From positions 64,001-128,000 of IMG/VR virus record IMGVR_UViG_3300030329_006012: DNA of 64,000 nt; one strand, written 5' to 3'. Shown one piece after another: positions 1,087 through 22,854 of the stretch. Position 1 is the first letter of the stretch. Every line of letters starts with the position of its first letter. The position numbers and the translations under genes were made by a program. Below the pieces are notes generated by a model that was given only the letters and a program-made list of their open reading frames with translations, did not search any database and was not told where the DNA came from. The DNA is from a virus.

Positions 1087-1224
1087 TTCTTTTGGATCTG
1101 TGAAAAATTTTCATTCTTCAAAGAAACTGGCCCCCGTAAATTAAATAAACCTTAGAATAACCCTTTTTTTTCGCATACTTAGGTTCGTGAGCGAACAAGT
1201 TTGCTTACAATGGAGGGTTAATTT

Positions 1225-1816: not shown

Positions 1817-4800
1817 ATGGCCATTAAAAAAGTAAAAGGAATAAAAGTATCCAAGTCCCTGTCGGACAAGTTTAAGTTTGACAAAGAGGGAGAATCTCAA
1901 ATAGGCTCCGGCGGCGAAGACGTGCATGTCATTGTCGGAGAGTCGGACATTGGTAATGATATGTCTCTAACCGGACAGGCCCATTTTGAAAAAAGAATAG
2001 CAGAAACACTCTTTGGAGTCCCGCAGCTCAACGGCGCCACACAAACCGCCGAATTACAAGATCTGATAGACAATGCTGCCGACCACGAGGGTTTTATTAT
2101 TTATTTAACGGCCCCATCGACGACTGCCCCTTTTACCCAGGGAGAGAAGTTTTATTTTTGCGAAAATGGTGTTTGGCACCAAAGCCCGTTCACTTCTAGT
2201 GATTCTGATGAGCCAGATCCCGACGACACCGACGGCGACGGAATAGATGATGTTGAAGATCCGCAGGTTACAGAAACGGTATCCACCACAGGAGCCACTG
2301 TTCAGGCCAGCGCCGCCGCACTGGAAATCCCCCCAAATGCATTGCCCGCCGCAGTGGACATATCAGTTGAAGTTGTTGATCCGGCCACAGTCTCAGACGC
2401 CGTTCTTGATGAGAAAACATTAACATCAGACGTGATCACCTTAACTCCTCACGGACAACAGTTCGCTGAACCAGTGAAGGTCACGATTAATGTTTCTAAA
2501 TTCATATGGAACCCAGACATTTATATACAAAGCTCGCCCGGTGCCACTTGGGAGCTTCACGAAACCCCAGTAGATGTGGACGGGAACAAGGTTTCTTTTG
2601 AGGTAACTTCATTCAGCTCTTATGCTGTTGTGGAGCCACCCCCCTCTCAGTACATTGTACTTGTTTACGAGGGCGACGGGAACTATTCTTTCAGGGCCAA
2701 TTTCGGCGAGGCCATCGGCGGCTTTCAATTCACGTTCGACGCCGGCTCTGCAGGAACCATTACACCTACCGCCGGCGCCCAAGTCGCCGAAGCAGGATGG
2801 TACTTTACCGCAAGCCCATCCTCAAAGACGGTATTGGCGTTCCCGTTTGACGGCAGGGAAATCGGGGCTGGTGAAGTCGAGCTCATTAGGTTCCATGCCT
2901 CGTCTAATTACTTGCCAACACCTCACTCCAATCTTCTTGAACCAATAGTACTCTCAAGGATCGACGGCACTCGAATTGATATGTCCGGTTTTGATTTTGA
3001 CGTTACACAATTGGACAATGCAGGTAGTTTCTCCGGAGTGGGAGATGCTGACGGCGACGGCGCGAATGATAATGTTGACGCATTCCCGAATGATCCATCT
3101 GAAACCCAAGACACCGACGGCGACGGAGTAGGCGATAATGCAGACGACCTCCCCAATGATCCCAGTGAGACTGTAGATAGCGATGGCGATGGTGTTGGAG
3201 ACAATTCAGATTGGAAACCAAACGATCCCGCTGAATCTGCTGACACCGACGGTGACGGAGTTGGTGACAATGCCGACGCCTTCCCAAATGATGCATCTGA
3301 AACAGTAGATTCCGACAATGACGGAGTTGGAGACAATTCAGATTGGAAACCAAACGATCCCGCTGAATCTGCTGATAGTGATGGTGACGGAGTTGGAGAC
3401 AACGCCGACGCTTTCCCGAATGATGCTTTGGAGACTGTTGACACCGATGGCGATGGCACAGGCGACAATGCCGATGTCTTCCCCAACGATGCCACCGAAG
3501 ACACCGACACCGATGGCGATGGAGTTGGCGATAATCTCGACTACGCTCCAAGCGATCCGGCAATCACAATACCCCCACAGCCCCCAGCCGGCTCAACGTT
3601 CGTTCTTAGAGTCTACACAGATGATGAAGTCCACGTTCCGGGCTCCACATCCTGGGATCGGTGGGGAGGACAACTTGTTGTTGACGGAACTGATTACAGC
3701 GACCTTCTTTCTACAGAAAGTGAGGAAACCATAACACTACCATATGATGCTAATCAGGTTGGGTATAGCACTGTTGATATCAATGACATAGGCGGCGACG
3801 GGGGGATAAAAGTAGAATTTCTTCACCCCGTATATGGCTGGCAATTCCCCGTTTACAGCATGGGCTCCATGAACCAGTCCGGCTGGCCAAATGGTGCTCC
3901 CGCCGGGGCACAAAACTTTTCTGATCCAGCACACTGGGAGGGCCCCCTGCCTGTCACGTTTCAATACTTAAGCACAGACGCAACGGACTTCGTGGTCAGG
4001 GATCAGCAGAATAACGTAATGGTCTCTACCGATGATCTCGGATCTGTTCCGGCCCCCCCGATGGTATTCTTTGATAATGCCGATCTAGTTGTAAACGAGA
4101 CTCACCCCCATAACTCCAATCAGGAGGCGTATGCCGGCTGGCGCCTGATGACAGCACTGGCAGGCGATGTTTTGTCCATTGATACATCAAAGTTCACTAT
4201 TGAAGATCTAGATGATCTTCCCGCTAACACTACTGTTAAATTCTACTGGCGGATGAGAGAGGACAACGAGTCAGGAGGCAAAGATGATAAATACATTACA
4301 CCCGATGGCGACACTTCGTGGGGTCGGAATTCCGGTACCGCTACGAACACCATTACAATTCCCCAAGAATTTGCAGCGGCGAGTTGGTATGAGAAGCCGG
4401 CGAGCTCCTTTATTTATCTGGAGATGGATTTGGAAGACGCGGATGGAAATATAAAACAGATCAAAAACAACTCCGTCGGTGACACTGTGATCTACGCTTT
4501 AAATGAGAACGAAGTTGAAATGTGGAGCCGCTTAAATGACGGCCTTACAGTAGATACTCCTGTTGATTCAAGCCACATATCCCTCAGTCGTGAAAAGAAG
4601 TATGATAGCGAAGGTAGACTGTTTGTTGTGGAAGGAGACACTGTAACATTCACTCCACCAGAGCCAGTTGCCACAGTCAAGGATCCTTACGGAAACGATA
4701 TTTCAGGGCCCTTTGAAGCACAGTGGAGATCACGCGCCATCGTCGACAATGAATATGTTTATCATCTTTCTTCTGCACCTTGGATTGCCAATTTTTATTC

Positions 4801-5755
4801 CGCCTCTGACAAGCCGTCGTTCTCCATACCGGAGCTCCCAAGCCCTTCTTCTTGGTATGAGTTCTTCTATATTCAACAAAAATGGTCGAATGGAGATCAT
4901 CTTTTCCCCACCTATGGCGCCGCGTACTCACAAATACTGCGGCAGACAAAGAATGAAATGGACTATATGTGGCTCACCGAGCCGTTAGCAAGCTTCGATG
5001 CCCTGTGGGAAACAACAGAACCATCTTGGTTCGACGATGAAGATAGCCTTACCAACTCGGCCAGCATGCACCTGCGCCAACTTTATGATCTGTATTACGT
5101 CGCTGCAGCCAACAATGGCTCACTCGACGTCAGCCATTACGATGTGCACTTTGAACACCGCATCGGAGACTTGAATTCTCAAATTGCTGTAGTAGATAAA
5201 TACTTTCCTGATACCTCGACAAGTGAGCATCACGAGAAATATCAGGAACTCGTGGCATGGGCATCGACATATGAAAATCCCCTCACCCCCATGATGGAAG
5301 TTCTTCACGATGCATCAATTATAAAAGAGGAGCTCGTCGCCGACTACACCATCCACGCCCTCAGAGACTACGGAATGTATTTCCCAGAAAACATCTATGG
5401 TCTGTGGCAACACGCTTTAGACGCTGAACCGAGCGATCAAGGCACTTGGCGCTGGTGGGCCCACAACGATGACGGCACAGACCCCACAAGGTTGAATGTT
5501 GATTTTTCTTCTGTGCTGTCTGAATATCCGAACCCTGCAGACTGGGCAACAGCACAACTTAACGCACTCAGCGAGATGAGAGAAGACATATCGAACGAGT
5601 TTGGTGGTTATGATGAGGCTGCCTTCGAGTCGGCAGATTATGGAGACTACTACTGCTACTCCGGGTGGAGTAACTATGAGCAAAAAAAACCTATCTCTTA
5701 CAATTCAGTCATTGATTTTCTCACTGAAGTGAGTGAGCTAACACCACCTGAGTAA
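1817..5755 (+). CDS. large mosaic virion surface/fibre protein (ZU5-like, cohesin-like, thrombospondin type-3 Ca-binding repeats)
   Basis: 1312 aa, AGGAGG RBS; LEIPPNAL...SDVITLTPHGQQFAEPVKVTI (ZU5-like), GEAIGGFQFTF (cohesin-like), DxDGDGVGDNxDxFPND repeats. Confidence 0.75.
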   Translation: MAIKKVKGIKVSKSLSDKFKFDKEGESQIGSGGEDVHVIVGESDIGNDMSLTGQAHFEKRIAETLFGVPQLNGATQTAELQDLIDNAADHEGFIIYLTAPSTTAPFTQGEKFYFCENGVWHQSPFTSSDSDEPDPDDTDGDGIDDVEDPQVTETVSTTGATVQASAAALEIPPNALPAAVDISVEVVDPATVSDAVLDEKTLTSDVITLTPHGQQFAEPVKVTINVSKFIWNPDIYIQSSPGATWELHETPVDVDGNKVSFEVTSFSSYAVVEPPPSQYIVLVYEGDGNYSFRANFGEAIGGFQFTFDAGSAGTITPTAGAQVAEAGWYFTASPSSKTVLAFPFDGREIGAGEVELIRFHASSNYLPTPHSNLLEPIVLSRIDGTRIDMSGFDFDVTQLDNAGSFSGVGDADGDGANDNVDAFPNDPSETQDTDGDGVGDNADDLPNDPSETVDSDGDGVGDNSDWKPNDPAESADTDGDGVGDNADAFPNDASETVDSDNDGVGDNSDWKPNDPAESADSDGDGVGDNADAFPNDALETVDTDGDGTGDNADVFPNDATEDTDTDGDGVGDNLDYAPSDPAITIPPQPPAGSTFVLRVYTDDEVHVPGSTSWDRWGGQLVVDGTDYSDLLSTESEETITLPYDANQVGYSTVDINDIGGDGGIKVEFLHPVYGWQFPVYSMGSMNQSGWPNGAPAGAQNFSDPAHWEGPLPVTFQYLSTDATDFVVRDQQNNVMVSTDDLGSVPAPPMVFFDNADLVVNETHPHNSNQEAYAGWRLMTALAGDVLSIDTSKFTIEDLDDLPANTTVKFYWRMREDNESGGKDDKYITPDGDTSWGRNSGTATNTITIPQEFAAASWYEKPASSFIYLEMDLEDADGNIKQIKNNSVGDTVIYALNENEVEMWSRLNDGLTVDTPVDSSHISLSREKKYDSEGRLFVVEGDTVTFTPPEPVATVKDPYGNDISGPFEAQWRSRAIVDNEYVYHLSSAPWIANFYSASDKPSFSIPELPSPSSWYEFFYIQQKWSNGDHLFPTYGAAYSQILRQTKNEMDYMWLTEPLASFDALWETTEPSWFDDEDSLTNSASMHLRQLYDLYYVAAANNGSLDVSHYDVHFEHRIGDLNSQIAVVDKYFPDTSTSEHHEKYQELVAWASTYENPLTPMMEVLHDASIIKEELVADYTIHALRDYGMYFPENIYGLWQHALDAEPSDQGTWRWWAHNDDGTDPTRLNVDFSSVLSEYPNPADWATAQLNALSEMREDISNEFGGYDEAAFESADYGDYYCYSGWSNYEQKKPISYNSVIDFLTEVSELTPPE
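3040..3560 (+). repeat. coding tandem repeat, ~66-bp unit (22-aa TSP3-like Ca-binding repeat), about 8 copies
   Basis: DTDGDGVGDNADAFPND-type units; near-identical 132-bp period (ggagacaattcagattggaaaccaaacgatcccgctgaatctgctga at 3197 and 3329). Confidence 0.9.
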
Positions 5756-6028: not shown

Positions 6029-8479
6029 ATGCCAGATAATAATAATAAAGTGAAGGGTTTGGCCGTTTTTAGCGGCACAAGCACCGTACACAAATTTACA
6101 GAAGACGGCAAAGCTAACCTTAATGATCTACTTGTTGTAGGTGAAGGTGAAACTAAGGACGTCGTTGAACTTAAAGGTCGTGTCTTTTTGAACGATCTTG
6201 ATAAAGATAAGCCACTGCACGAAGCCATTAACAAGATGGTCAGTGACGAGCAGAAAACACGTGGCGAAGAAGTTGCGAGATTAGACGCAGAAGATTCTCT
6301 GATCAAAGCCGAACTCGCAGGTGAAGCTAAAGCAATCCGACAAGAGCTCGCAGGTGAAGCTAAAGCAATCCGTGGAGAACTCGAAGGTGAAGCTAACGCA
6401 ATCCGTGGAGAACTCGCAGGTGAAGCTAAAGCAATCCGTGGAGAACTCGCAGGTGAAGCTAAAGCAATCCGCGAAGAACTGAAAGACGCTCGCGGCGAAC
6501 TCGGTGGCGAAGTTGCCGATGTTAGACGTGATCTCGTTGGCGAAATGGACTCAATGAAAAACGATATCGGTGGGGACATTGATCACGTCAAAGGTGAGTT
6601 GGAAACAAAGATCGACAATACCAAAAGTTCGTTGCAAACTAAAATTGATGAAAACAAAGATGCAGCCGCAAACGCTCGCTCTTTGTTGGCTCAAGACATT
6701 GCTGATAACACCGCCGCAATTGATTTTGTTAAAGATAATGCAAATCCAGACGCTATCGATTCCTTAACTGAAATCATTAAAGCGTATTCAGATGCTGACG
6801 GTGAATTGACCAATGCATTTGTTGCTTTGCTCGGTGAAGAGAAGAAAGCACGTGGCGAAGATTACATACGCCTGAAAGACAACCTTGCCAAAGAAGCCAG
6901 CATGCGCCAAGCCGACGTTCAGTACTTGGTGGGTGAAGATAACTTCTTTTTCCAAATGGGCATGGATGCTCTCAGCCAGGTTGATAAAAAGGTCGATGCC
7001 AACAACCAAATCATTGGCCAAAATGCCGTGAGTATCATCCAACAAAGCCAAAACTTTGATGGTTACGTGGTGGTTAACGACGCCAAGGTTGATGCGAATG
7101 CGACCGACATAGCCAGCCTCCAGCAATTCGCTGGTGCCGCAGTCGCGGATATCAATAATCAACAAGTGATTCAAGATAACGCCATCGCCGCTAACACCAC
7201 GTCGATTGGTCAAAATGCTCAAGATATTGCAAACAACACCGACAAAATCACTCTTGATGTTCAAACATTGGAAAATACCATCAACACCTCTTTTGGTGAA
7301 TTCAAAGATGAGATGAGTGCTGAACATGGTAAAATTCGCGATGATGTGAATGCTGAATTCGTCCGAGCGAGAGGTGAAGAAGACGCCATTCGCGCCGAAC
7401 TCGCAGGTGAAGCTAAAGCAATCCGTGGAGAACTCGCAGGTGAAGCTAACGCAATCCGCGATGAACTCAAAGGTGAAGCTAGTGCAATCCGCGAAGAACT
7501 CGCAGGTGAAGCTGATGCAATCCGTGGAGAGCTCGCAGGTGAATCTGCTTTTCTCCTTATGAGGCTCGAAGGTGAAGTAATGTCAGTCCGCGATGAACTC
7601 GCAGGTGAAACAGCATTGATTCACAGTCGCATGGGAGATCATCAGGCAACTGGTCATCCGACCCTCGCTGATGCTATCGTTGCTAATAAGAGCGCAATTG
7701 ATTTTGTTAAAGATAATGCAGATAAAGACGCTATCGATTCCTTAACTGAAATCATCAAGGCGTATTCGGATGCTGACGGTGAATTGAACAATGCATTTGT
7801 TGCTTTGCTCGGTGAAGAGACGAAAGCACGTGAAAAGGATGTCAAAAACCTGAAATCTGCACTCGAAGGTGAAACTAGAGCAATCCGCGAACAACTCGCA
7901 GGTGAAGCTAAAGCAATCCGTGGAGAACTCGCAGGTGAAGCTAAAGCAATCCGTGGAGAACTCAAAGGTGAAATCAACAACCTACAGGGTGAATTAAGCA
8001 GTGATCTTGGCGAGTTCAAAACAAAGACTGGTGAAGATCTCACATCTTTGATGAACTATTCAGACGGCCGCGATAATACTATCACGGATCATGTTAACAA
8101 CCTTACAGAAAAGACCTTTGATGGAAACAACATGAGTCTTTCTGGTTTTGCTCAATTGAATTCGGTTGAAGCAGCTTCAGTAGCTGTTACTTCTGCTTTT
8201 AGAATTCCACACATCACCACTGTTCAACAGTTGACTGATATGCAGGATACCTACACAAAAGCAAACGGTATGATGTTCTATTTGGACATGGCTGATGATG
8301 CTGGTCGTACTGGCTTCGAAGAAGGGTATAAATTATACTTCTGCGAAGGCAACGAGTGGTATCCTTCCCCGTTCCACAGTGAACCACAAAGTGAAGACTC
8401 TGAACGAACTGGCTCTACTTGGGGAGAAATCCTCACTGCTGCCGGCGAAGAACTGGAGTCCTTTGACCCTTTAGCGTAG
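6029..8479 (+). CDS. long coiled-coil fibre/stalk protein with 11-residue repeats
   Basis: 816 aa, GGAGG RBS; ELAGEAKAIRG repeats, duplicated DAIDSLTEIIKAYSDADGEL segment, C-terminal YFCEGNEWYPSPF module. Confidence 0.85.
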   Translation: MPDNNNKVKGLAVFSGTSTVHKFTEDGKANLNDLLVVGEGETKDVVELKGRVFLNDLDKDKPLHEAINKMVSDEQKTRGEEVARLDAEDSLIKAELAGEAKAIRQELAGEAKAIRGELEGEANAIRGELAGEAKAIRGELAGEAKAIREELKDARGELGGEVADVRRDLVGEMDSMKNDIGGDIDHVKGELETKIDNTKSSLQTKIDENKDAAANARSLLAQDIADNTAAIDFVKDNANPDAIDSLTEIIKAYSDADGELTNAFVALLGEEKKARGEDYIRLKDNLAKEASMRQADVQYLVGEDNFFFQMGMDALSQVDKKVDANNQIIGQNAVSIIQQSQNFDGYVVVNDAKVDANATDIASLQQFAGAAVADINNQQVIQDNAIAANTTSIGQNAQDIANNTDKITLDVQTLENTINTSFGEFKDEMSAEHGKIRDDVNAEFVRARGEEDAIRAELAGEAKAIRGELAGEANAIRDELKGEASAIREELAGEADAIRGELAGESAFLLMRLEGEVMSVRDELAGETALIHSRMGDHQATGHPTLADAIVANKSAIDFVKDNADKDAIDSLTEIIKAYSDADGELNNAFVALLGEETKAREKDVKNLKSALEGETRAIREQLAGEAKAIRGELAGEAKAIRGELKGEINNLQGELSSDLGEFKTKTGEDLTSLMNYSDGRDNTITDHVNNLTEKTFDGNNMSLSGFAQLNSVEAASVAVTSAFRIPHITTVQQLTDMQDTYTKANGMMFYLDMADDAGRTGFEEGYKLYFCEGNEWYPSPFHSEPQSEDSERTGSTWGEILTAAGEELESFDPLA
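6310..7975 (+). repeat. 33-bp coding repeat (gaactcgcaggtgaagctaaagcaatccgtgga) in three clusters plus a ~140-bp direct repeat
   Basis: Clusters near 6310-6485, 7395-7620, 7860-7975; near-identical segments at ~6715-6850 and ~7695-7830. Confidence 0.9.
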
Positions 8480-13419: not shown

Positions 13420-14673
13420 ATGGCAGCTCCCGTCTTAACTCCAAAAAGCAATTCCAGCGTCTCCGTTCTTCCTGTAACGGGAACACAAGGAAACGTCTTA
13501 CCGGCTCTTGCCACAAAAGTATACAAAACCAGCGATTTCGTCTCTGGCGCACTAGACCAGGTCACCTACACTTACCGCAAATTAGGCGGTGATGTACTTG
13601 ACCTTGAAATCAAAGAAGAGAGTGTCTATGCTGCGTATGAGGAAGCTTGCCTAGAGTATTCGTACCTCATCAACATCCATCAGTCGAAGAACATCCTCTC
13701 TGATGTCCTCGGCGCCCAGACCGGAACTTTCGATCACAAGGGCGAGATGAAAGCTGGCGTCCTGAGCTCATCTCTTGGCGGCGACCATGTTAGCTTAAAA
13801 TATCCACTGTTTGATTATGCATATGCTCGCCGAGTTGCAGACGGTATTTCACAAGAAGCTAATGTCGGCGGCAGCGCCACTGTGTATTCGGCATCTTTTG
13901 ACATTAAAAATCAAGTGCAGGATTATGATCTGCAGGAGATTATCATGGCTAGTGGCTCCTCATTTAGCGGCAGCGTAGATAATAAAAAGATCCTAATTAA
14001 GAAGGTGTTTTATAAGACTCCAAGGGTTATGTGGAGGTTCTTTGGGTATCAGGGCGGCCTAAATGTTATTGGCAATCTAACGTCTTATGGGCAGTATGCA
14101 GATGACAGTACATTCCAAGTCGTTCCGGTGTGGGAGAACAAACTTCAGGCAATGGCCTATGAGGATGCCCTTTATACCAGAACATCTCAGTGTTCTTATG
14201 AATTAAGAAACAATAAGTTAAGGATTTTTCCAAACCCATCTGCATACAACATTGAGAAGATGTGGTTTGAATTTACGATACCTGGAAACAACTGGGAAGC
14301 CGAAGGCGACACCGATATTGGTATAGATGGCATCAACAACATGAACACCCTTCCTCTGGATAATATCCCCTATGAGAACATCAACTCTATTGGTAAGCAG
14401 TGGATTCGAAGATTCGCATTGTCACTGAGCAAGGAAACACTCGGCCTTACGAGAAGCAAGTTTGCCACAATACCGATTCCTGGCGAGTCTGTTACATTAA
14501 ACGGTGAGCAACTGGCTTCGCAGGCAAGAGAAGAACAAGAAAAACTTCGAGAAGAGCTCAAGACGATCTTAGACGAAATGACCTATGGTCAGTTGATGTC
14601 TAGTGATGCTGAGTTGATTGAGAACGCAAACAAGATACAACAGAAAATCCCCTTACTTATCTTTGTGGGATAA
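13420..14673 (+). CDS. neck / head-tail adaptor protein (T4 gp13-like)
   Basis: 417 aa; YRKLGGDVLDLEI, WIRRFALSLSKETLG..RSKF..IPIPG..VTLNG..L pattern; position after MCP. Confidence 0.75.
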   Translation: MAAPVLTPKSNSSVSVLPVTGTQGNVLPALATKVYKTSDFVSGALDQVTYTYRKLGGDVLDLEIKEESVYAAYEEACLEYSYLINIHQSKNILSDVLGAQTGTFDHKGEMKAGVLSSSLGGDHVSLKYPLFDYAYARRVADGISQEANVGGSATVYSASFDIKNQVQDYDLQEIIMASGSSFSGSVDNKKILIKKVFYKTPRVMWRFFGYQGGLNVIGNLTSYGQYADDSTFQVVPVWENKLQAMAYEDALYTRTSQCSYELRNNKLRIFPNPSAYNIEKMWFEFTIPGNNWEAEGDTDIGIDGINNMNTLPLDNIPYENINSIGKQWIRRFALSLSKETLGLTRSKFATIPIPGESVTLNGEQLASQAREEQEKLREELKTILDEMTYGQLMSSDAELIENANKIQQKIPLLIFVG

Positions 14674-14684
14674 GGAGGCGATAA

Positions 14685-17600
14685 GTGTCAGATAACGACA
14701 ACAAATGGGAACAACCGGCAGCTCCTCCTCCCCCTCTGTTTACGGGTAAGAAAGAAAAAGACCTCGTAAAACAGGTGACTGATGAGGTCATTGAACGTGT
14801 TATTGGCACGTCCATACTTTACTACCCCATCAGCCTTGCACATTCAGATTACCATCCGCTCTATGGCGAGGCCATAAAGAAGACCTATCTGCCTCCCGTC
14901 CACGTAGAAGTGCTTGCAGAGTGGGAGGGCGAAGAGACAACCACTACGGGATTTGGCATAGATAAGAAATCTTCTGTGACCATTCACTTCCACAAGCGCC
15001 GCCTGACGGAAGATCAGAATTTATTCGTCCGAGAGGGAGATTTCATCCAATATGGCGAGCAGAAGTACGAGATCATCACCCTTGGGCAACCAAAGCAGCT
15101 ATTTGGCCAGCCAGACTCTAAGATAGAGATTTCGGCCAAGTGTATTCGCGCCAGAGACGGCACTTTCCCATCGGAAGCATACCCCAATCCGGAAGAAGAT
15201 GATCCGCGATTCACCGCACCACCAGCCTGCGATCCAGTTCATGAAATACGAGTTTTAACGGGAGATACCACATCTACTGGCGGCGCCGGAGAGCAGCCAT
15301 GCGAACAGGTCTACGAGAGACCCGGCACCCCGCCACCACCACTCTTTACAGGCAAGAAAGAGTCGAACTTGGTGAAGCAGGTCGGAGATGAACTACTAGA
15401 GAGGGTCATTGGCCAGCAAATAGTTTATTTTCCAATCTCTCTAGGAAACTCAGATTATCACGAGCTCTACGGAGAGTCAATAAATAAGACTTTTTTGCCA
15501 CCCATTAGGGTTTTCGCCGCCGTAGACTGGAAGGGCAGCGATACAACCACCACTAATTTTGGGATTGACAGGAAGTCCGAGATTGAGGTGAAGTTTCACA
15601 AGAGGCGCCTCACAGAAGACCAAAATCTCTTTGTCCGCGAAGGTGATTTTGTCCTCTATGGTAAAATATTGTATGAGATCGTTACAGTCGGCCAACCCAG
15701 ACTTCTTTTCGGAAAGATAGATGAGAAGTATGAGGTTGTTGCAAGCTGCATTAGGGCTAGAGAAGGAACTTTCAGGCTATCAGAGGTGCAGGGTACAGTT
15801 AGTGAGTTTGATCTTGATTCTGTAACGGCATGCGAAAATGCCAATCTCGTAATTCCCGACGGCGTTGATAATACCATGTCAAATGTTGGCGCTGGAGCAG
15901 GGGTATTTAAGAATAAGACAGGCATCAACTTTAACATGAAAACTTTGGTGGAGGGGGACAACATAACCCTCACTTCCACTGCAGATGAGATAACCATCAA
16001 TTCTGTTGGTGCAGGCGGTGATTGGGATGGACAGAGAGATGGCGACGCAGCGATTACGGGGTCTCTTGTAGTGACCGACTCCACCTTTTTTGGAGACGCC
16101 CTTAGCGACACTCACACGTTTACAGGCTCAATCCTCCAAACAGGCTCAGGTGGGACATCTATATTTAATGATGAAGTCCGCGTTGCGGGAAATTTTTCTG
16201 CATCGTATCTTTCTGGCGACGGCTCCGGCCTTACCGGAGTAACAGGAGATTGGGATGGTCAACACATTGGCAACGCAGCAATTACAGGTAGCTTAGAGGT
16301 CTTAAATTCAACCACTTTCGGGGCCCTCTCAACAGACGTACACAAATTCACAGGATCTCTTCAAATCGGTAGCGCATCGGCCCAACACGCATCTAACTTA
16401 TCTCACGGAGGCGTACCAGCCTTCGAGGTTAGAAACAATGGACAACTTAGAACTAAAAACGACGGCGCCAAAGGATTTGAATTCGTGTCCGAGAATACCC
16501 CCAACGGCGGCGGCGGCAATGTTGCCACATTTTATATGGGCGACACCGATCCCGAAAACCCGAAAGAGGTTATGCGATTGGACAGAGCCGGCGGCTTTTA
16601 TGGCAAAGAAGCTCTGCATCTTACGTCACAGGGCTCTGGAGACAACAGGGATGTCCGCATCGCCGGCGCCTTTGATGAGGCGGGCGGCCATGCCGGCATC
16701 TCTCCCTATTATGACGCTACTGACGACGGATTAACCGGCTCCATGCTTGGGAGAGCTCACAAGAGGTGGAAAGAGGTCCACGCGAGAACAGCGTCTTTTG
16801 AAGAAGCCCGAAAGGTGGTTCCAACCACCTCCATCAATCATCACGGCTACGAACCCTACCTGGCAAACCACAACTATCTAACAAACTTTACAGCATGGGG
16901 GAACCCTAGTGTCTATGACCCGCTTACCAACAACATACTGGCGCGAGGAGATATCAAATTTGATATAAGTAGAACAGTGTATGACTCGGCCGGAGTGGAG
17001 ATTGCAAGTGATGCCTCTGGCAATATTGCCTATCCCGCAGGTCCACTTAGCAATACTGGGCTTGGGCTCCCATTCGATGGGGTCTATCAACAGTTGTGCT
17101 GGAACCCGCTAACGGCGAGCACCGTCATTAAGACAAACATTGATTTCACTACTAACGAATACTATGGCCCGGCAACCTCATCTATAGTCTACTCTCTTGG
17201 GAAGGTGGTGGTCCACTATGCCTCTAACGCAACCGGATCGTCCGTATCGGGGAGAATAAGGAGATACGACAAGAACCTCAGCTCCTCATTTTGGCATCCA
17301 CTGGATAACCTGCAAGATATTTCCACAGATCCCAGATACACAATTCATATGCTGGATATCCCCAATTACAACTATATGGAGGAGCTAGAAATCTCTATAA
17401 CAGCATCTGAAAATGGCTACAATCTGGGCGGCGCCCCCTCTTATATGGCTATCTCGGAAATTGAGTGCTTCCTTGACAATCTCATTCCCTATAATCACAA
17501 TCTGCCCAAAATTGATGGATATAGCGACAATGCTATGTACGGCGACTTGGATATGCGAGGAGGGAATGATCAAAAGAATATCGTTTTAGATGCCAGCACC

Positions 17601-18464
17601 GGAGATATTACGATGTCTGGCACTCTTTCAACTCATGGGGTGACAATGAGGGGCCACATCCTGCCAGATGAGGACGACGTTTATGACATAGGATCGCCAT
17701 CTAAGCAGATTAGAGATATCTATGTGTCCACCGGATCGATCATTTTTGGCGGCACTCACGCGATAAGTATTGATCCCGAATCCAACGGCTTTTCCTTTGG
17801 TGTGGTGGACGGCGTAGATGTTCCAGCCGCTGGCTTTACTATACCGCAATTAACTAACGAAGAACTCTCCTCTTTGCAGCCCAAAAACGGAACAATGGTC
17901 TATGACACCACTCAGGAAAAATTCCTTTTTTGTCAAGGCGGAGAATGGCTCTCGCTGGGATCTCAATCCGGAGGAGGAGAACAACCTACGATTCCACGAG
18001 GATCGGGAATCCTCAGCCTGACGGATGATGGCGACGGCCCCAATCGTCAGCTGCTGGAGGAGTATGCGGAGAATTCTGTTAGTTATTCTGGGAAGAGTTT
18101 ATATTTGGCCAATGTATCGGGAATACCACTAGAAGCATTCAGCCAAGGTGCCAAGTTCTACTTTAATGAAGGTGGTGTGTGGCACCCATCCCACTTTTTC
18201 AGCAATGATAAGGTTGAGTATCAAGGCGATCCGATTTATCCTGATATGCAAGATATATTATCTCTCAATGGTGCATCCGCTGCAGATCGGGCAATTCTCA
18301 CCGGATTGGATCAAAATGCGTCATCTTACGGCGGCCGAGCTATTTACTTAGGTGCAACCGGAAGTGCTCCCATTGGAGTGTTTTCCCAAGAGAATAAATA
18401 CTACTTTAATGAAGGTGGGGTTTGGCATGCCAGCAGCTTCTATACACTGAAGGATGAGGATTAA
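14685..18464 (+). CDS. neck/head-closure protein (two tandem T4 gp14-like domains) fused to a fibre-like region
   Basis: 1259 aa; two copies of PPPLFTGKKE...FGID.KS....FHKRRLTEDQNLFVREGDF; then GDWDGQ..G.AAITGSL repeats and two YFNEGGVWH modules. Confidence 0.75.
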   Translation: MSDNDNKWEQPAAPPPPLFTGKKEKDLVKQVTDEVIERVIGTSILYYPISLAHSDYHPLYGEAIKKTYLPPVHVEVLAEWEGEETTTTGFGIDKKSSVTIHFHKRRLTEDQNLFVREGDFIQYGEQKYEIITLGQPKQLFGQPDSKIEISAKCIRARDGTFPSEAYPNPEEDDPRFTAPPACDPVHEIRVLTGDTTSTGGAGEQPCEQVYERPGTPPPPLFTGKKESNLVKQVGDELLERVIGQQIVYFPISLGNSDYHELYGESINKTFLPPIRVFAAVDWKGSDTTTTNFGIDRKSEIEVKFHKRRLTEDQNLFVREGDFVLYGKILYEIVTVGQPRLLFGKIDEKYEVVASCIRAREGTFRLSEVQGTVSEFDLDSVTACENANLVIPDGVDNTMSNVGAGAGVFKNKTGINFNMKTLVEGDNITLTSTADEITINSVGAGGDWDGQRDGDAAITGSLVVTDSTFFGDALSDTHTFTGSILQTGSGGTSIFNDEVRVAGNFSASYLSGDGSGLTGVTGDWDGQHIGNAAITGSLEVLNSTTFGALSTDVHKFTGSLQIGSASAQHASNLSHGGVPAFEVRNNGQLRTKNDGAKGFEFVSENTPNGGGGNVATFYMGDTDPENPKEVMRLDRAGGFYGKEALHLTSQGSGDNRDVRIAGAFDEAGGHAGISPYYDATDDGLTGSMLGRAHKRWKEVHARTASFEEARKVVPTTSINHHGYEPYLANHNYLTNFTAWGNPSVYDPLTNNILARGDIKFDISRTVYDSAGVEIASDASGNIAYPAGPLSNTGLGLPFDGVYQQLCWNPLTASTVIKTNIDFTTNEYYGPATSSIVYSLGKVVVHYASNATGSSVSGRIRRYDKNLSSSFWHPLDNLQDISTDPRYTIHMLDIPNYNYMEELEISITASENGYNLGGAPSYMAISEIECFLDNLIPYNHNLPKIDGYSDNAMYGDLDMRGGNDQKNIVLDASTGDITMSGTLSTHGVTMRGHILPDEDDVYDIGSPSKQIRDIYVSTGSIIFGGTHAISIDPESNGFSFGVVDGVDVPAAGFTIPQLTNEELSSLQPKNGTMVYDTTQEKFLFCQGGEWLSLGSQSGGGEQPTIPRGSGILSLTDDGDGPNRQLLEEYAENSVSYSGKSLYLANVSGIPLEAFSQGAKFYFNEGGVWHPSHFFSNDKVEYQGDPIYPDMQDILSLNGASAADRAILTGLDQNASSYGGRAIYLGATGSAPIGVFSQENKYYFNEGGVWHASSFYTLKDED

Positions 18465-18466
18465 TA

Positions 18467-19288
18467 ATGGCAGAAGAAAAAGATAATAATAACGTTGTTG
18501 CTCTGGAGCCATCAACCATAGAGACTGTTGACTTGGCTATGTTTGAGTGGTTGAACGAGAACATGGATTTACATACCACTTCTAATCGCGGCTACAACAA
18601 GGTTCCGGTAATCTGGGTGTCTGCAGAGAGAGCCTTTCAGTCAAAGCGAAGCAGGGACATGAGGGACAAGGAAGGCGCCCTGATCCTGCCGCTGATCTCG
18701 CTAGAAAGAAACGGATTCCAGAAGGATCCGGCCATCAAAGGGGTTGCCTGGGCAAATGTGCCCCCAAATCCAGATGTTAAGGGCGGCGCCTTTACAATTA
18801 CTAGAGAAATTAAACAAAACAAAACGGCCAATTTTGCTAATGCCGACGCTAAAAAGCAAACTGGTCAAATAAATTTTCCGAGGAAGAACAAAAAAATTGT
18901 TTACGAAACCATTTCAATTCCTTTTCCCGTCTCTATTAATGTTAATTACGCCATTAAGATTCGTACAGAATACCAGCAGCAGATGAACGACTTGTTGCAA
19001 CCCTTTATGACTCGCACTGGAAATATCGACTATTTTAAGATCAAAAAAGACGGCCATGTTTATGAGGCGTTTATAGATGGAGATTTCACCTCCGAGAGCA
19101 ATGTTGAGGATATGGGCGAGGACGAGAGAATGTATGAGGCCGAAGTGGGGGTCCGAGTTTTAGCATATCTCGTCGGAGAAGGCTCTAATCAGGAGAAACC
19201 CTTTGTGGTTCGTCGAGAAAACGCTGTTGAGATCAAAATTCCTCGTGAAAGAGCCATGCTTGGTGAAGACGATTTTGATCTTTTGTAG
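18467..19288 (+). CDS. tail terminator / tail completion protein (gp15-like)
   Basis: 273 aa between neck and sheath genes; VPVIWVSAER, LPLISLER, Y.IKIRTEYQQQMNDL motifs. Confidence 0.6.
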   Translation: MAEEKDNNNVVALEPSTIETVDLAMFEWLNENMDLHTTSNRGYNKVPVIWVSAERAFQSKRSRDMRDKEGALILPLISLERNGFQKDPAIKGVAWANVPPNPDVKGGAFTITREIKQNKTANFANADAKKQTGQINFPRKNKKIVYETISIPFPVSINVNYAIKIRTEYQQQMNDLLQPFMTRTGNIDYFKIKKDGHVYEAFIDGDFTSESNVEDMGEDERMYEAEVGVRVLAYLVGEGSNQEKPFVVRRENAVEIKIPRERAMLGEDDFDLL

Positions 19289-19415
19289 AAAAAACCCACC
19301 TAATACTCATAAAAAACACTTTTTCGGCTTTTGAAACTATTAAACACTAATTAATATGGTATATAATAGTGTCATGGTTGTATCTGCAATCAGACCCAAA
19401 GAGGAGAACTCAAAG

Positions 19416-22229
19416 ATGTCAGCAAAAAAGTTTAGATTCGTATCCCCTGGAATTTTCTTGAATGAGATTGATAAATCTCTTTTACCAAAAGAGGGAGCCC
19501 CAGTTGGGCCCGTCGTTATTGGACGTACTGAGCGAGGTCCTGGCCTCCGACCCGTCACCGTTAACTCATTTTTGGAATTTACCCAGATTTTTGGAAACCC
19601 AATCCCCGGTGGCAACACCAGCGATGTTTGGAGAAATGGCAACCGGACGAGTCCGACTTATGCTTCCTATGCCGCACGTGCATGGTTGAAGAACGGCACC
19701 CCCCTGACTGTTGTTCGGGTTCTCGGAGCAGCCAGTCCAGATGCCGACCCGACCACTGGAGTAGCCGGCTGGAAAACAGAGAATTCACCAAACGTATTAG
19801 CTTCCGACAACGGAGGCGCCTTCGGCCTTTTCGTTTCCCCGCAAGTCCCATCAGGCGCAGACCCCATCAACGGAACATTGGCAGCCATCTGGTATCTTGA
19901 TCAAGGATCAATCAGGCTCGCTGGCGAAGGACAGAGCGGTAGCACTGTCGGTGCCTCCGGCTCCGGCGCTGGCCAACTGGTCAAGTGCAACGGTTCAGAT
20001 TTCCAGTTTAAGGCGATTATCACAAATGCTGAAGATAATTCAGTCTTAACCTCATCTTTTAATTTCGATGCATCTTCCGACAAGTATATCAGAAAAGTGT
20101 TTAGCACGAACCCAACTCTTTTGGGCTCAGATAATGGCTCTCCGATTGAATATTTTCTTGGAGAGAGCTTCGACTCTAGTTTGAAAAAGACCCTTCCTGC
20201 CAGCGCCGCTGGAGCAGAAGGATCAATGGCGTTTATTGTCGCCCTTAAAGGTGCAGACGACCGCCAAAAGGATTCCCAACCCGCAGAGAGCGGGATGGTG
20301 ATTTCCCAAACGACAGGAGATCCAGGCGAGGCTCTTGAGCCAAAAGACCTTTTTAAATTTGTCGCCTTAGACAGCGGAGAGTGGATTAACTCTAACGTGA
20401 AGGTTTCGATTCGAGACATCGCCCCCTCGACAAACCCCGACTTCTCCCCCTTCGGGACTTTTACTGTCGAGGTGAGAGACGCAAGAGACACTGATGCAAA
20501 GAAGGTTGTACTGGAGACATTTTCCGGATGTAATCTTGATCCTGATTCCACGAACTATATCGGCGCCAAGATTGGCAACAAATATGCTACTTGGAATTCC
20601 ACTGATCGCCGCTTCACTGAGTTTGGAGATTACGACAACAAATCCGCCTATATTTATGTTGATACATCCATTCTAGACAACAAGCATCCGGGCGAAACAC
20701 TTTTGCCTTTCGGATTTAAAGGTCCGTCGACCTACGCTGACTTAACGGGCGTCATCAACACAAGTCTTGGGGATTTCGGCGAAGTAGATATTCCACACGC
20801 ACCGAGCAACACTTTTGTGTCCGGCGGTGGTGGAGCAAACAATCCACTTACCATGTCAGGCCCTCAGATGTCGCTTCGATTAAGCAGTTCAACGGGCGGC
20901 TTTTCCGATCCTACGGACGCTTATTGGGGTGTCACCACCGATGCCCCAGGTACTACAGTGTTTGACGGCTCCTACGCAGACATGGCAGGAATGCTGCCGA
21001 GCGTTAATGATGACTACATAAAAGCGGATACTTTTACGTTTTCGCTGGACAATGTTACATATGTTTCTAGTTCAACTACTGGTATTGTAGAGTGGCAGGC
21101 TCGGTATGGTTCCGATCTCTATGAAAATGACCTCTCTATTAATGCAGGGGGCGACACACCAGACGGACCACTCAGTGCCAGTTACGAGAATGTTCTTAAC
21201 GCCGGCCTGAATCGCTTTACGATGCCAATGGTTGGCGGATTCGATGGTCTCGACATCAAACACCGCGACCCACTTTCCAATGCTATCCTCAGCGAGAAGG
21301 ACGAATTAACGAGCTATGCCTTTAACTCGATTAAGAGATCTATTGACAGCGTTTCAGACCCAGAGGTGGTAGAGATGAATGTTGCCACCGTTCCTGGTGT
21401 CACCAACGAGTCACTAACCAACCATCTTGTGCAGGTTTGTGAAACCAGAGCAGATTGCTTAGCCATCATTGACCTACCAGGAGGCTACGAGACAGAATAT
21501 GAGTCATCCGCAGAAGCCTCAGAAAGAGTAGGCAGTGTTGATGCTACTGTCACAGCCCTCAAAAACAGAGCCATGAATAGCAGTTATGCATGCTCTTACT
21601 ATCCTTGGGTACAGTCAAAGGATGAATTCGGCTCAGGAAAGGTACTGTGGCTTCCACCGTCAGTGGCAGCTTTGGGTACTTTCGCCAGCAATGACCGAAA
21701 GTCAGCCCCTTGGTTTGCTCCCGCAGGATTCACTCGCGGCGGACTTTCCGACGGTGCAGCAGGTATTCCGGTAATTGGAGTACGTGAACACTTAACTCGC
21801 AAAATGCGAGATAAACTGTATGACAACAATGTTAACCCAATTGCTAAATTTCCAGCAGAAGGGATTGTTATTTTTGGACAAAAGACGATGCAGGCAGTTC
21901 CATCTGCCCTTGATCGCGTGAATGTTCGACGTATGCTCTTGCACGTCAAGAAGGGAATCTCAAACATTTCCTCTACCCTATTATTTGACCAGAACGTTAA
22001 AACAACCTGGGCAAGATTCTTGGGCGAAGCAGAGCCTTTCTTGAGAGATGTTCAGGCCCAACTGGGTTTGACTGAATACAAGATTGTTTTGGATGAAACC
22101 ACTACCACTCCAGACTTAATAGATCGCAACATTATGTATGCAAAAATCTTCTTGAAGCCTGCACGATCAATCGAGTTTATCGCAATTGATTTTGTAATTC
22201 AAAGAACTGGAGCATCTTTTGAAGATTAA
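19416..22229 (+). CDS. gp18: contractile tail sheath protein (gp18-like)
   Basis: FVSPGIFLNEIDKS, WFAPAGFTRG, LYDNNVNPIAKFP, IFGQKT, LDRVNVRRML, IFLKPARSIEFIAIDF; start moved to ATG 19416 behind AGGAG. Confidence 0.97.
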   Translation: MSAKKFRFVSPGIFLNEIDKSLLPKEGAPVGPVVIGRTERGPGLRPVTVNSFLEFTQIFGNPIPGGNTSDVWRNGNRTSPTYASYAARAWLKNGTPLTVVRVLGAASPDADPTTGVAGWKTENSPNVLASDNGGAFGLFVSPQVPSGADPINGTLAAIWYLDQGSIRLAGEGQSGSTVGASGSGAGQLVKCNGSDFQFKAIITNAEDNSVLTSSFNFDASSDKYIRKVFSTNPTLLGSDNGSPIEYFLGESFDSSLKKTLPASAAGAEGSMAFIVALKGADDRQKDSQPAESGMVISQTTGDPGEALEPKDLFKFVALDSGEWINSNVKVSIRDIAPSTNPDFSPFGTFTVEVRDARDTDAKKVVLETFSGCNLDPDSTNYIGAKIGNKYATWNSTDRRFTEFGDYDNKSAYIYVDTSILDNKHPGETLLPFGFKGPSTYADLTGVINTSLGDFGEVDIPHAPSNTFVSGGGGANNPLTMSGPQMSLRLSSSTGGFSDPTDAYWGVTTDAPGTTVFDGSYADMAGMLPSVNDDYIKADTFTFSLDNVTYVSSSTTGIVEWQARYGSDLYENDLSINAGGDTPDGPLSASYENVLNAGLNRFTMPMVGGFDGLDIKHRDPLSNAILSEKDELTSYAFNSIKRSIDSVSDPEVVEMNVATVPGVTNESLTNHLVQVCETRADCLAIIDLPGGYETEYESSAEASERVGSVDATVTALKNRAMNSSYACSYYPWVQSKDEFGSGKVLWLPPSVAALGTFASNDRKSAPWFAPAGFTRGGLSDGAAGIPVIGVREHLTRKMRDKLYDNNVNPIAKFPAEGIVIFGQKTMQAVPSALDRVNVRRMLLHVKKGISNISSTLLFDQNVKTTWARFLGEAEPFLRDVQAQLGLTEYKIVLDETTTTPDLIDRNIMYAKIFLKPARSIEFIAIDFVIQRTGASFED

Positions 22230-22284: not shown

Positions 22285-22854
22285 ATGGCAAACTTTTGGA
22301 CAAGCCCCAACCGAGACCCGAAAAGGGCATATAGATTTTTAGTCAACTTGGCAGCATTTGACGGAGGCGCACAGTGGTACGCTAAGTCAGCAACGAAGCC
22401 AAAGTTCACCGTTACGAATCAAGAGCACAAATACATCAATCATACGTTTAATTATCCTGGCCGAGTAACGTGGGAGCCGATCACCATTACAATTGTTGAT
22501 CCTGTCGATCCCAACGCCGCTCGCCAAGCCGCAGAAATCCTCCAAGCATCCGGCTATTATATTCCGGGTAATGAAAACGCACCTATTACAACCATTAATA
22601 AGAAAGACGCCACCGAAGCCATGAAGCGTGTAGAAATCATGCAGATTGGAGAAAATGGCGACGATATTTTGGAAAAATGGGTGTTAAACAATGCTTGGAT
22701 TGAGACAATCAATTTCAGCGACTTGGACTATGAGTCTGATGAACTGACCACTATTGAGCTCACTATCCGCTATGACTGGGCAGAGTTAGAAGTTACCGAC
22801 GCAGACGGCACCACGACTCCTTATTTTACGACCAACAATAATCCCGGCGCATAA
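22285..22854 (+). CDS. gp19: tail tube protein (gp19-like)
   Basis: Follows sheath; YPGRVTWEPITIT, EKWVLNNAWI, LDYESDELTTIELTIRYDWA. Confidence 0.9.
   Translation: MANFWTSPNRDPKRAYRFLVNLAAFDGGAQWYAKSATKPKFTVTNQEHKYINHTFNYPGRVTWEPITITIVDPVDPNAARQAAEILQASGYYIPGNENAPITTINKKDATEAMKRVEIMQIGENGDDILEKWVLNNAWIETINFSDLDYESDELTTIELTIRYDWAELEVTDADGTTTPYFTTNNNPGA

What the first reader, a model, noticed from the sequence alone, without database searches (positions are those of the whole stretch)
14685..18464. Neck protein with two tandem gp14-like domains fused to a fibre: possible 6-fold/3-fold symmetry adaptor
Seen: residues ~8-160 and ~205-365 are clear duplicates (both PPPLFTGKKE...ERVIG...YG E.I.KT.LPP...FGID.KS...FHKRRLTEDQNLFVREGDF...FG...E..A.CIRAR.GTF), followed by ~900 aa of fibre-type sequence and two docking modules. 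Known: head-closure proteins of the gp14 type are normally single-domain and form hexameric rings, while fibres are trimers. Inference: three chains with two domains each could make a pseudo-hexameric neck ring with built-in collar/whisker fibres, or six chains could make a double ring. Either is an unusual neck architecture.
Basis: partly seen in the sequence, partly recalled or inferred. Interest (0 to 1): 0.72.

Follow-up and report, generated by a model that had tools for sequence, protein, structure and literature searches.

The report
Doubled neck-ring protein carrying a fibre
In this uncultured marine T4-like phage, the one protein that plugs the head after DNA packaging has its ring-forming domain duplicated in tandem and fused to a long fibre, a layout I found in no paper that probably lets three chains build a six-part ring, though the chain count is untested.

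Summary
ORF 14685-18464 (1259 aa) opens with two ungapped copies of a ~155-aa domain (66% identity, E 9e-81).

The domain is a head-closure/stopper fold:
- The AlphaFold model has pLDDT 91.5, and its best Foldseek match is T4 gp14.
- VIA-align gives Z 10-11.5 to phage stoppers.
- A profile comparison with T4 gp14 gives E 9.5e-5.

The gene lies between a gp13-type adaptor gene and a gp15-type terminator gene. Closely syntenic phages carry a stand-alone 162-aa stopper in that slot. The complete 190-kb genome has no other stopper domain.

The duplication is old and happened once in this clade. The first and second copies from 50 protein clusters form sister clades with equal conservation and almost no fixed differences, so both copies probably sit in equivalent ring positions.

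A second, fibre-less stopper domain arose at least four times (two fusions, two adjacent-gene pairs), always beside a fibre-bearing stopper. This fits a three-chain pseudo-hexamer that halves the number of fibre chains. A six-chain, twelve-domain assembly is not excluded. The complex predictor was closed, and the two-domain monomer model fixed no geometry (pTM 0.38).

I rate this a new variant of a known kind. First-stage notes of this scan report the same layout in other genomes.

The parts
13420..14673 (+). Upstream gene: gp13-type head-tail adaptor (417 aa). Expected dodecamer above the stopper ring.
   Evidence: BLASTP E 8e-50 to the 384-aa protein of L006, which carries precomputed PF26809 Phage_T4_gp13. 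E 8e-10 to T4 gp13 over the C-terminal 54 aa. Weak hit to phrog_211 Ad2.
14685..18464 (+). The whole ORF, 1259 aa with a GTG start: tandem stopper domains plus fibre.
   Evidence: The start matches the N-termini of homologues.
14706..15167 (+). Stopper (head-closure) domain 1, residues 8-161.
   Evidence: 66% identical to domain 2. HMM match E 8e-72. phrog_460 Hc2 E 4.8e-4 on the whole protein; one of the 51 members of alignment A1 scanned alone reaches E 2e-5.
15168..15311 (+). Inter-domain linker, residues 162-209. Fairly conserved, with Cys182 and Cys206. Predicted disordered in the monomer model.
   Evidence: Conservation 0.58-0.86 with almost no gaps across 50 homologues. pLDDT below 50 for residues 163-213.
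15312..15773 (+). Stopper (head-closure) domain 2, residues 210-363. This is the copy that continues into the fibre.
   Evidence: AF2 pLDDT 91.5. Foldseek top hit is T4 gp14, 9mkb_0, E 1.7e-6. VIA-align Z 10-11.5 to phage stoppers. BFVD hits to 'Neck protein' of cyanophage S-RIM32 and others.
15774..16010 (+). Conserved fibre base, residues 364-442. It includes a G-x-G-x-G-V-F ... N-I-T-L motif.
   Evidence: Aligned in 49 of 49 double-domain homologues up to about residue 442. 53% identity over 53 aa to the tail fibre protein of Pseudomonas phage Rollin.
15894..16373 (+). Two ~80-aa 'WDG' shaft repeats, residues 404-488 and 490-563.
   Evidence: Internal BLAST, 41-64% identity, E 1e-14.
16374..17561 (+). 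Variable shaft, residues 564-959.
   Evidence: Shared with only 1-3 of the 49 double-domain homologues; P0014 is the only one aligned end to end.
17562..18461 (+). Conserved tip unit, residues 960-1259. It holds the fibre motif at 965-1029 (nt 17577-17771) and the two terminal modules.
   Evidence: Present at 47-68% identity in about 40 of the double-domain proteins and nearly confined to them in this length class. The motif at 965-1029 is 55% identical to segments of fibre proteins that carry Peptidase_S74, Mtd_N or beta-helix domains.
17973..18203 (+). Terminal 'Y-F-N-E-G-G-V-W' module, copy 1, residues 1097-1173.
18210..18461 (+). Terminal 'Y-F-N-E-G-G-V-W' module, copy 2, residues 1176-1259.
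   Evidence: The same module occurs in ORFs 1222-1626, 1817-5755 and 6029-8479.
18467..19288 (+). Downstream gene: gp15-type tail terminator / sheath stabiliser (273 aa). Expected hexamer below the stopper ring.
   Evidence: Pfam PF16724 T4-gp15_tss, 26.2 bits against a cut-off of 25, E 5.3e-6. Followed by the sheath gene (19356-22229) and the tube gene (22285-22854).

Best explanation
The ORF encodes this phage's only head-closure (stopper) protein, the counterpart of T4 gp14. The stopper closes the portal-adaptor channel after packaging and offers the docking face for the tail terminator. An old in-frame tandem duplication gave the chain two stopper-fold domains, and the second continues into a fibre with a conserved base, a variable shaft and a conserved tip. 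Most likely three chains supply six quasi-equivalent stopper domains to one hexamer-like ring, which sits under the gp13-type dodecamer and on the gp15-type hexamer. Only every second ring position then carries a fibre chain, so the neck carries three fibre chains instead of six, either as one off-axis trimer or as three separate whiskers. Shown: the duplication, the fold, the gene position, the single-copy status, and the equal constraint on both domains. Inferred: the chain count, the ring arrangement, the oligomeric state of the fibre, and its function (probably surface or glycan contact, or a neck whisker role like that of T4 fibritin).
For: Fold and family: AF2 model pLDDT 91.5. The best PDB match is T4 gp14, followed by stoppers of NF5, Pam3, Pa193, lambda and SPP1. 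VIA-align Z 11.5 to 8.0 over 20 stopper chains. hhalign against T4 gp14 gives E 9.5e-5. Position: the gene order is gp13-type, this ORF, gp15-type, sheath, tube. Locus L018 has the same order with a 162-aa stopper in this slot. Single copy: the 190,225-bp genome, rated 100% complete, has only these two stopper domains. One old duplication: the first-domain (D1) and second-domain (D2) copies are sister clades (support 99/99, 98/100) with equal stems (0.24 and 0.28) and equal depths. There is no sign of gene conversion. Equivalent environments: within-clade conservation is 0.867 against 0.866. D1 keeps 22 and D2 keeps 25 of the 27 sites conserved across the family. There are 72 fixed-identical sites, and of the 11 fixed differences only 4 lie in the fold. 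The conserved N-terminal P-P-P-P-L-F arm is kept in both copies. Link between a second domain and a fibre: a second, fibre-less stopper domain arose at least 4 times, and every one of the 21 such rows carries a C-terminal extension. These are the window's fused clade, the distant fused P0213 sitting after a PF26809 gp13 gene, an 11-member clade of adjacent gene pairs, and L120. None of the 103 short stand-alone stopper loci has a second copy. T4 gp14 is a hexamer on a gp13 dodecamer (PMC12929587; PMC12929629).
Against: No structural test of the chain count was possible. The complex predictor was closed. The monomer model of residues 1-410 gives pTM 0.38 with a disordered linker, so it predicts no side-by-side packing. 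Single-domain stopper-fibre proteins without any partner exist, one of them in a complete 193,778-bp genome, so six fibre chains per ring are tolerated. Three chains leaving a ring 120 degrees apart cannot form a coaxial trimer at the neck, and the ~30-residue segment after domain 2 is barely long enough for them to meet off-axis (inference). phiKZ shows that one stopper sequence can fill 12 positions in two conformations (PMC13250141), so equal conservation also fits a 12-domain assembly. The link between duplication and fibre rests on 3-4 independent events and cannot reach significance. Sequence similarity to T4 gp14 is weak: Pfam gives nothing, hmmsearch against PDB sequences gives nothing, and hhalign probability is 58.6%.
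Confidence: 0.5

Rival explanations
1. Six chains assemble, giving twelve stopper domains. These form either one dodecameric ring matching the 12-fold adaptor, with the two domains in alternating conformations as in phiKZ gp99, or two stacked hexameric rings. The six fibre chains then form two off-axis trimers, as they would in the single-domain stopper-fibre phages.
For: phiKZ has a dodecameric stopper with two conformers, one of which contacts the whisker (PMC13250141). VIA-align gives Z 7.8 to the phiKZ neck chain 9xps_B. Single-domain stopper-fibre proteins with six chains per ring evidently work. Stopper, terminator and tube folds stack naturally; tube and hub hits reach Z 5-6. The fibre shares a motif with fibre proteins that carry Peptidase_S74; on established knowledge that domain is the chaperone of obligately trimeric fibres. 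Three adjacent chains can meet more easily than three chains 120 degrees apart (inference).
Against: Stacked rings would put the two domains against different partners. Yet only 4 core positions are fixed-different, both copies keep the N-terminal arm, and both keep nearly all family-conserved sites. Close syntenic relatives with near-identical neighbouring genes use a single 162-aa stopper. Twelve domains would need room that the conserved gp13-type and gp15-type partners are not known to provide. T4, the best structural match, uses six.
Confidence: 0.3
2. Only one of the two domains sits in the hexameric channel ring, with six chains in all. The other domain has left the ring and serves as a peripheral spacer or as the socket that holds the fibre bases or another collar component.
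For: The linker is conserved rather than a free tether. Slight co-variation between the two domains, for example at column 46 with 37 matches against 20 expected, could reflect contact between them.
Against: A domain released from the ring should lose constraint on its ring, adaptor and terminator faces. Both domains are equally conserved and evolve at equal rates.
Confidence: 0.12
3. The fusion is not functional as a single chain. It is either a recent read-through of two genes, or it is expressed as two products by internal initiation or processing, so the virion holds a separate short stopper and a stopper-fibre as in the two-gene phages.
For: An unfused two-gene version exists in related phages, with a 171-aa stopper ending about 15 nt before the stopper-fibre gene.
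Against: The open frame across the linker is kept without stops or frameshifts in 50 clusters down to 53-58% identity, with little length variation and a conserved linker. The window's linker contains no Met. Even if the chain were cleaved, the 1:1 ratio of the two domains would remain.
Confidence: 0.05

Closest known systems
T4 gp14 (head closure Hc2, neck stopper; PDB 9MKB, 9LU4-9LU7)
   Same: Same fold (Foldseek E 1.7e-6, TMq 0.67; VIA-align Z 10.2 over 134 residues). The profile alignment is colinear and shares the G-E, F-G, E-G-D and E-I motifs (E 9.5e-5). Same gene slot between gp13 and gp15.
   Different: T4 gp14 is a 256-aa single domain with a C-terminal hook that grips gp15, and it carries no fibre. 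T4 fibres (fibritin) are separate proteins bound to gp13. Here the domain is ~155 aa, present twice in one chain, and fused to ~900 aa of fibre.
Single-domain stopper-fibre proteins and extended 'neck proteins' of marine T4-like phages (for example the Neck protein of cyanophage S-RIM32, 372 aa, and the metagenomic proteins P0049-P0107)
   Same: Same stopper family (about 50% identity for the metagenomic set) with a long C-terminal extension. Some carry the same terminal module (P0113, P0115).
   Different: They have one stopper domain per chain. Some are accompanied by a separate short stopper gene immediately upstream. The window's clade has the two domains fused in frame.
T4 gp27 / Mu gp44 / T6SS VgrG baseplate hub (from my own knowledge of these structures)
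   Same: Two tandem homologous tube-fold domains per chain, so that a trimer mimics a hexameric ring and bridges 6-fold and 3-fold parts. The stopper fold is distantly like these hub domains (VIA-align Z 5-6 to hub chains).
   Different: In hubs the trimeric needle continues along the ring axis. At the neck the axis is occupied by head and tail, so any fibre must leave sideways. The trimeric state is not shown here.
phiKZ gp99 dodecameric stopper (PDB 9XPS)
   Same: Stopper fold (VIA-align Z 7.8). Twelve stopper domains in two states, one of them contacting whisker proteins.
   Different: gp99 is a single gene product in two conformations and carries no fused fibre. No duplication is involved.
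T4 fibritin (wac) collar and whiskers
   Same: Fibres anchored at the neck. The window's terminal module ends in a Y-F-x-E-G-x-x-W...F hairpin-like motif that resembles the foldon by eye, and the same module closes a coiled-coil fibre gene at 6029-8479.
   Different: Fibritin is a separate trimer bound to gp13, with 12 trimers per neck. No significant sequence match to fibritin was found.

Membership tests
Head-closure / stopper proteins of the T4 gp14 (Hc2) type | Stopper fold: N-terminal helix plus beta-sandwich with a long hairpin | tested here: met
   AF2 pLDDT 91.5. Foldseek probability 1.00 to T4 gp14 and to more than 20 stopper chains. VIA-align Z 8-11.5 for 20 stopper chains, well above unrelated rows.
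Head-closure / stopper proteins of the T4 gp14 (Hc2) type | Detectable sequence relationship to T4 gp14 or the Hc2 profile | tested here: inconclusive
   hhalign E 9.5e-5 but probability 58.6%. phrog_460 E 4.8e-4 on the whole protein, and only 1 of 51 family members matches it. Pfam gives no hit and hmmsearch against PDB sequences gives none.
Head-closure / stopper proteins of the T4 gp14 (Hc2) type | Gene placed between the gp13-type adaptor and the gp15-type terminator | tested here: met
   The same order is seen in L006/L007 and L018.
Head-closure / stopper proteins of the T4 gp14 (Hc2) type | Sole stopper of the genome | tested here: met
   Only two matches in the complete 190,225-bp record, both inside this ORF.
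Head-closure / stopper proteins of the T4 gp14 (Hc2) type | Assembles as a six-subunit ring on a dodecameric adaptor and gates the channel | not testable with these tools
No coordinates were available for measuring geometry.
Pseudo-hexameric trimers of tandem tube-fold domains (gp27 / VgrG logic) | Two homologous ring-forming domains in one chain | tested here: met
Pseudo-hexameric trimers of tandem tube-fold domains (gp27 / VgrG logic) | Both domains occupy quasi-equivalent positions in one ring built from three chains | tested here: inconclusive
   Indirect support comes from symmetric conservation and rates. The monomer model fixes no inter-domain geometry, pTM 0.38.
Trimeric phage fibres | A trimer-specific element such as a Peptidase_S74 chaperone, triple beta-helix, coiled coil or foldon | tested here: inconclusive
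   No such Pfam domain was found in the local library. The database's precomputed label PF26696 is named 'PTL_trimer' in the Atlas output, but I could not place or verify it. The motif at 965-1029 is shared with Peptidase_S74 fibres. The terminal module has no PDB sequence match.

The most novel reading that the evidence does not exclude
The neck ring of this phage clade is a trimer of two-domain chains: a pseudo-hexameric stopper that evolution reached at least four times, twice by fusion and twice by adjacent gene pairs, in order to halve the number of fibre chains attached to the head-tail joint. It would be the neck counterpart of the gp27/VgrG hub and would give the virion three whiskers, or one off-axis trimeric fibre, built directly into the genome gate.
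Probability: 0.45. Interest if true: 0.75.

Novelty: new variant of a known kind. Interest (0 to 1): 0.62.

Why it matters
Stopper rings are among the most uniform parts of tailed phages: small, single-domain and six-fold. Here the same ring subunit is duplicated within one chain and carries a fibre, in a widespread group of marine T4-like phages. Fused and unfused versions coexist in this group. If three chains build the ring, this is a second, independent use of the tandem-domain trick known from baseplate hubs. It would also be a natural series (one gene, two genes, fused gene) for studying how homo-oligomeric rings become hetero- or pseudo-symmetric. In addition, it shows that neck fibres can be an integral part of the genome gate rather than add-ons bound to the adaptor as in T4. 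That matters for how such phages might sense or hold on to surfaces.

Tried and rejected
- Complex prediction with three copies each of domain 1 (residues 8-163) and domain 2 (residues 208-365) was sent twice.
- AF2 of residues 1-410 gave pTM 0.38 and pLDDT below 50 for the linker. It is useless for judging side-by-side against stacked packing, so I did not search folds with it.
- Pfam on the whole protein, on its parts and on homologues returned nothing. The precomputed labels PF26696 and PF26708 are not in the local Pfam copy, and no paper mentions them.
- phmmer and hmmsearch against PDB sequences returned no stopper hit.
- The terminal-module profile against PDB sequences gave only chance-level hits: TcdB repeat E 0.6 and Sas-4. 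The choline-binding repeat scored E 0.075. The foldon resemblance is by eye only.
- ESM Atlas searches of the fibre and the tip scored 0.79-0.84, which is chance level.
- I tested whether the duplicated unit extends through the post-domain segments (162-209 against 364-411). hhalign picks the register that aligns the shared Cys but gives E 0.28, so this is not supported.
- The phylogenetically independent test of 'second domain goes with fibre' has only 3-4 pairs and cannot reach p 0.05.
- The search for related loci with the wide alignment A1 failed for lack of a conserved stretch. It was redone with A2.
- megablast of 10.6 kb against cultured phages found no match. tblastn found only a 28% match in Flavobacterium 'immuto' phages and a short fibre motif in Pseudomonas phage Rollin.
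- Literature searches for a tandem-duplicated or fibre-fused stopper found no paper.
Full report
**What is there.** The ORF at 14685-18464 on the + strand is open, starts with GTG and encodes 1259 aa. Residues 8-161 and 210-363 align without a gap at 66% identity, E 9e-81. The rest of the chain holds two ~80-aa repeats (404-488 and 490-563) and two terminal ~80-aa modules (1097-1173 and 1176-1259).

**What the repeated domain is.** Sequence libraries say little. Pfam gives nothing. PHROGs gives a weak hit to phrog_460 'head closure Hc2' at E 4.8e-4. Searches of PDB sequences give nothing. Structure is clear.
- An AlphaFold model of domain 2, built on 51 relatives, has mean pLDDT 91.5.
- Its best Foldseek match in the PDB is the 244-residue chain of the T4 portal-neck-tail complex (E 1.7e-6, TMq 0.67). 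From its length and the paper's description I take this chain to be gp14. Stoppers of NF5, Pam3, Pa193, T1, lambda and SPP1 follow.
- VIA-align, which does not depend on Foldseek, gives Z 11.5 to 8.0 for twenty stopper chains, including T4 gp14 at Z 10.2 over 134 residues.
- In the viral model library the hits include 'Neck protein' of cyanophage S-RIM32, Serratia phiMAM1 and others.
- A profile of the family aligns colinearly with T4 gp14 residues 55-164 at E 9.5e-5, probability 58.6%.

**Gene context.** The upstream 417-aa protein is related to a protein that carries the precomputed family Phage_T4_gp13 (E 8e-50) and to T4 gp13 itself (E 8e-10 over 54 aa). The downstream 273-aa protein passes the Pfam cut-off for T4-gp15_tss. 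The sheath, tube and hub genes follow. So the ORF sits in the gp14 slot. A related contig, L018, has the same gene order with a stand-alone 162-aa stopper in that slot. The window's genome is 190,225 bp and rated complete, and it has no other stopper domain. This protein must therefore be the working stopper.

**How common the layout is.** A search of 1.84 billion cluster representatives with domain 2 found 468 related clusters. Only four close ones and one distant one (P0213) have two domains. Among 5.8 billion proteins, about 48 clusters share the full two-domain N-terminus at 61-90% identity. Many more have one domain plus a long tail. Adding the representative-search set brings the two-domain clusters in hand to 50.

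I classified 154 IMG/VR and assembly loci:

| Locus type | Loci |
|---|---|
| Single short stopper (~163 aa) | 103 |
| Single stopper with a C-terminal extension | 31 |
| Short stopper gene immediately upstream of a stopper-fibre gene | 15 |
| Fused two-domain stopper-fibre | 5 |
| Two short stoppers | 0 |

One complete 193,778-bp genome has a single stopper domain inside a 1425-aa protein. A fibre on every ring subunit is therefore viable.

**History of the duplication.**
- In domain trees, the 50 first domains (D1) and the 50 second domains (D2) each form a clade with support 99. The two clades are sisters, with similar stems (0.24 and 0.28) and depths (0.41 and 0.37). A second tree gives 98 and 100.
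- Identity between D1 and D2 is the same within a protein (0.613) as between proteins (0.604), so there is no gene conversion.
- P0213 duplicated independently in a distant lineage and also sits right after a gp13-family gene.
- The two-gene pairs fall into one clade of eleven plus a separate case, L120.
- A second stopper domain therefore arose at least four times, each time next to a fibre-bearing copy. With only 3-4 independent contrasts this cannot be shown statistically.

**Are the two domains equivalent?** Within-clade conservation is 0.867 for D1 and 0.866 for D2. Of the 27 sites conserved at 80% or more in single-domain relatives, D1 keeps 22 and D2 keeps 25, and the changes are conservative. 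There are 72 positions fixed and identical in both, and 11 fixed but different; 4 of the 11 lie in the fold and the rest in the segments after it. Both copies keep the conserved proline-rich N-terminal arm. This is what one expects if both domains face the same neighbours: the adaptor above, the terminator below, the channel inside and a like domain on either side. It is not what one expects of two stacked rings, or of a domain that has left the ring.

**The fibre.**
- Across the two-domain proteins, residues 1-442 are always present.
- Residues 550-950 are shared with at most three of the 49 homologues; P0014 alone aligns end to end.
- Residues 970-1259 recur in about 40 of the 49 at roughly 50% identity and are almost confined to this clade.
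- A 65-residue motif at 965-1029 is 55% identical to segments of fibre proteins that carry Peptidase_S74, Mtd_N or beta-helix domains. On established knowledge these are trimeric, so this is circumstantial evidence for a trimeric fibre.
- The terminal module also occurs in three other virion genes of the window and directly behind the stopper domain in the short relatives P0113 and P0115. Its function is unknown, and no solved structure matches it by sequence.

**How it most likely works.** T4 gp14 forms a hexamer on a gp13 dodecamer and gates the channel (PMC12929587; PMC12929629). The simplest outcome of an in-frame duplication of such a subunit is that three chains fill the six ring positions. 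This needs no new interface, and the equal constraint on the two domains fits it. The ring would then carry three fibre chains rather than six.

I put this at about one in two. The main rival, at about three in ten, is six chains with twelve domains. phiKZ has a dodecameric stopper in two conformations (PMC13250141), so equal conservation alone does not exclude this.

At the neck the ring axis is taken by head and tail. A trimeric fibre would therefore have to form off-axis from chains leaving 120 degrees apart, with only about 30 linker residues. That is marginal. Three separate whiskers are equally possible.

**What could not be done.** The complex predictor was unavailable. The monomer model of residues 1-410 has pTM 0.38 and a disordered linker, so it says nothing about packing. 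No tool gave coordinates, so I could not map the few fixed differences onto ring interfaces.

**Novelty.** Stopper proteins, and neck proteins with extensions, are known. Full-text searches found no paper on a tandem-duplicated or fibre-fused stopper. I rate this a new variant of a known kind. First-stage notes of this scan report the same architecture in other genomes. My searches confirm independently that it is a clade-wide feature.

Noticed in passing
L004:5471-5983 and L004:6001-10260 (also L088, L092-L094, L099, L100, L102, L104, L105, L109, L111, L120): This is an unfused two-gene version. A 171-180-aa stand-alone stopper gene ends about 15 nt before a stopper-plus-fibre gene. It arose at least twice in a sister lineage where single stopper-fibre genes and single short stoppers also occur.
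   Followed up: yes
window 1222-1626, 1817-5755 (residues 84-139), 6029-8479 (residues 741-791): The terminal Y-F-(N/C)-E-G-x-x-W ... F module of this ORF recurs in three other virion genes (E 7e-11 to 5e-4). In the 816-aa coiled-coil fibre it lies near the C-terminal end, about where T4 fibritin has its foldon, and its last hairpin resembles the foldon by eye. No significant match to any solved structure was found.
   Followed up: partly
L169:5001-5381 (Flavobacterium phage vB_FspM_immuto_3-5A, record 133212-133592, + strand): The only cultured-phage match to the stopper domain (28.5% identity) lies just after the 'putative head completion protein' gene. No + strand gene is annotated there; two small opposite-strand hypothetical CDS cover the stretch. 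The stopper gene of this phage looks unannotated or split.
   Followed up: no
window 17577-17771 (residues 965-1029): A G-H-I-L-P-D ... Y-D-I-G-S-P ... I-R-D-I-Y-V-S motif is shared at about 55% identity with many metagenomic fibre proteins that carry Peptidase_S74, Mtd_N or beta-helix domains. It looks like a mobile fibre segment.
   Followed up: partly
window 15228-15230, 15300-15302, 15831-15833 (Cys182, Cys206, Cys383): Cysteines lie in the segments that follow each stopper domain. Cys182 and Cys383 fall in the same register of the two repeat units, and the segments around them are conserved. The similarity of the two segments is not significant (E 0.28). A disulfide or metal site is possible.
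   Followed up: partly
profile position 46 of the stopper domain (about residues 53-54 in domain 1 and 255-256 in domain 2; window about 14841-14846 and 15447-15452): Across 50 two-domain proteins, an Asp/Asn position changes in step in both domains (37 matches against 20 expected from shuffling). This hints at co-evolution or a shared partner, but it is not corrected for phylogeny.
   Followed up: partly
L006:6001-8262 (P0213, 753 aa): This is an independent, distant two-domain stopper with a ~400-aa tail, directly after a Phage_T4_gp13-family gene. It shows that the fused layout is not unique to the window's clade.
   Followed up: partly
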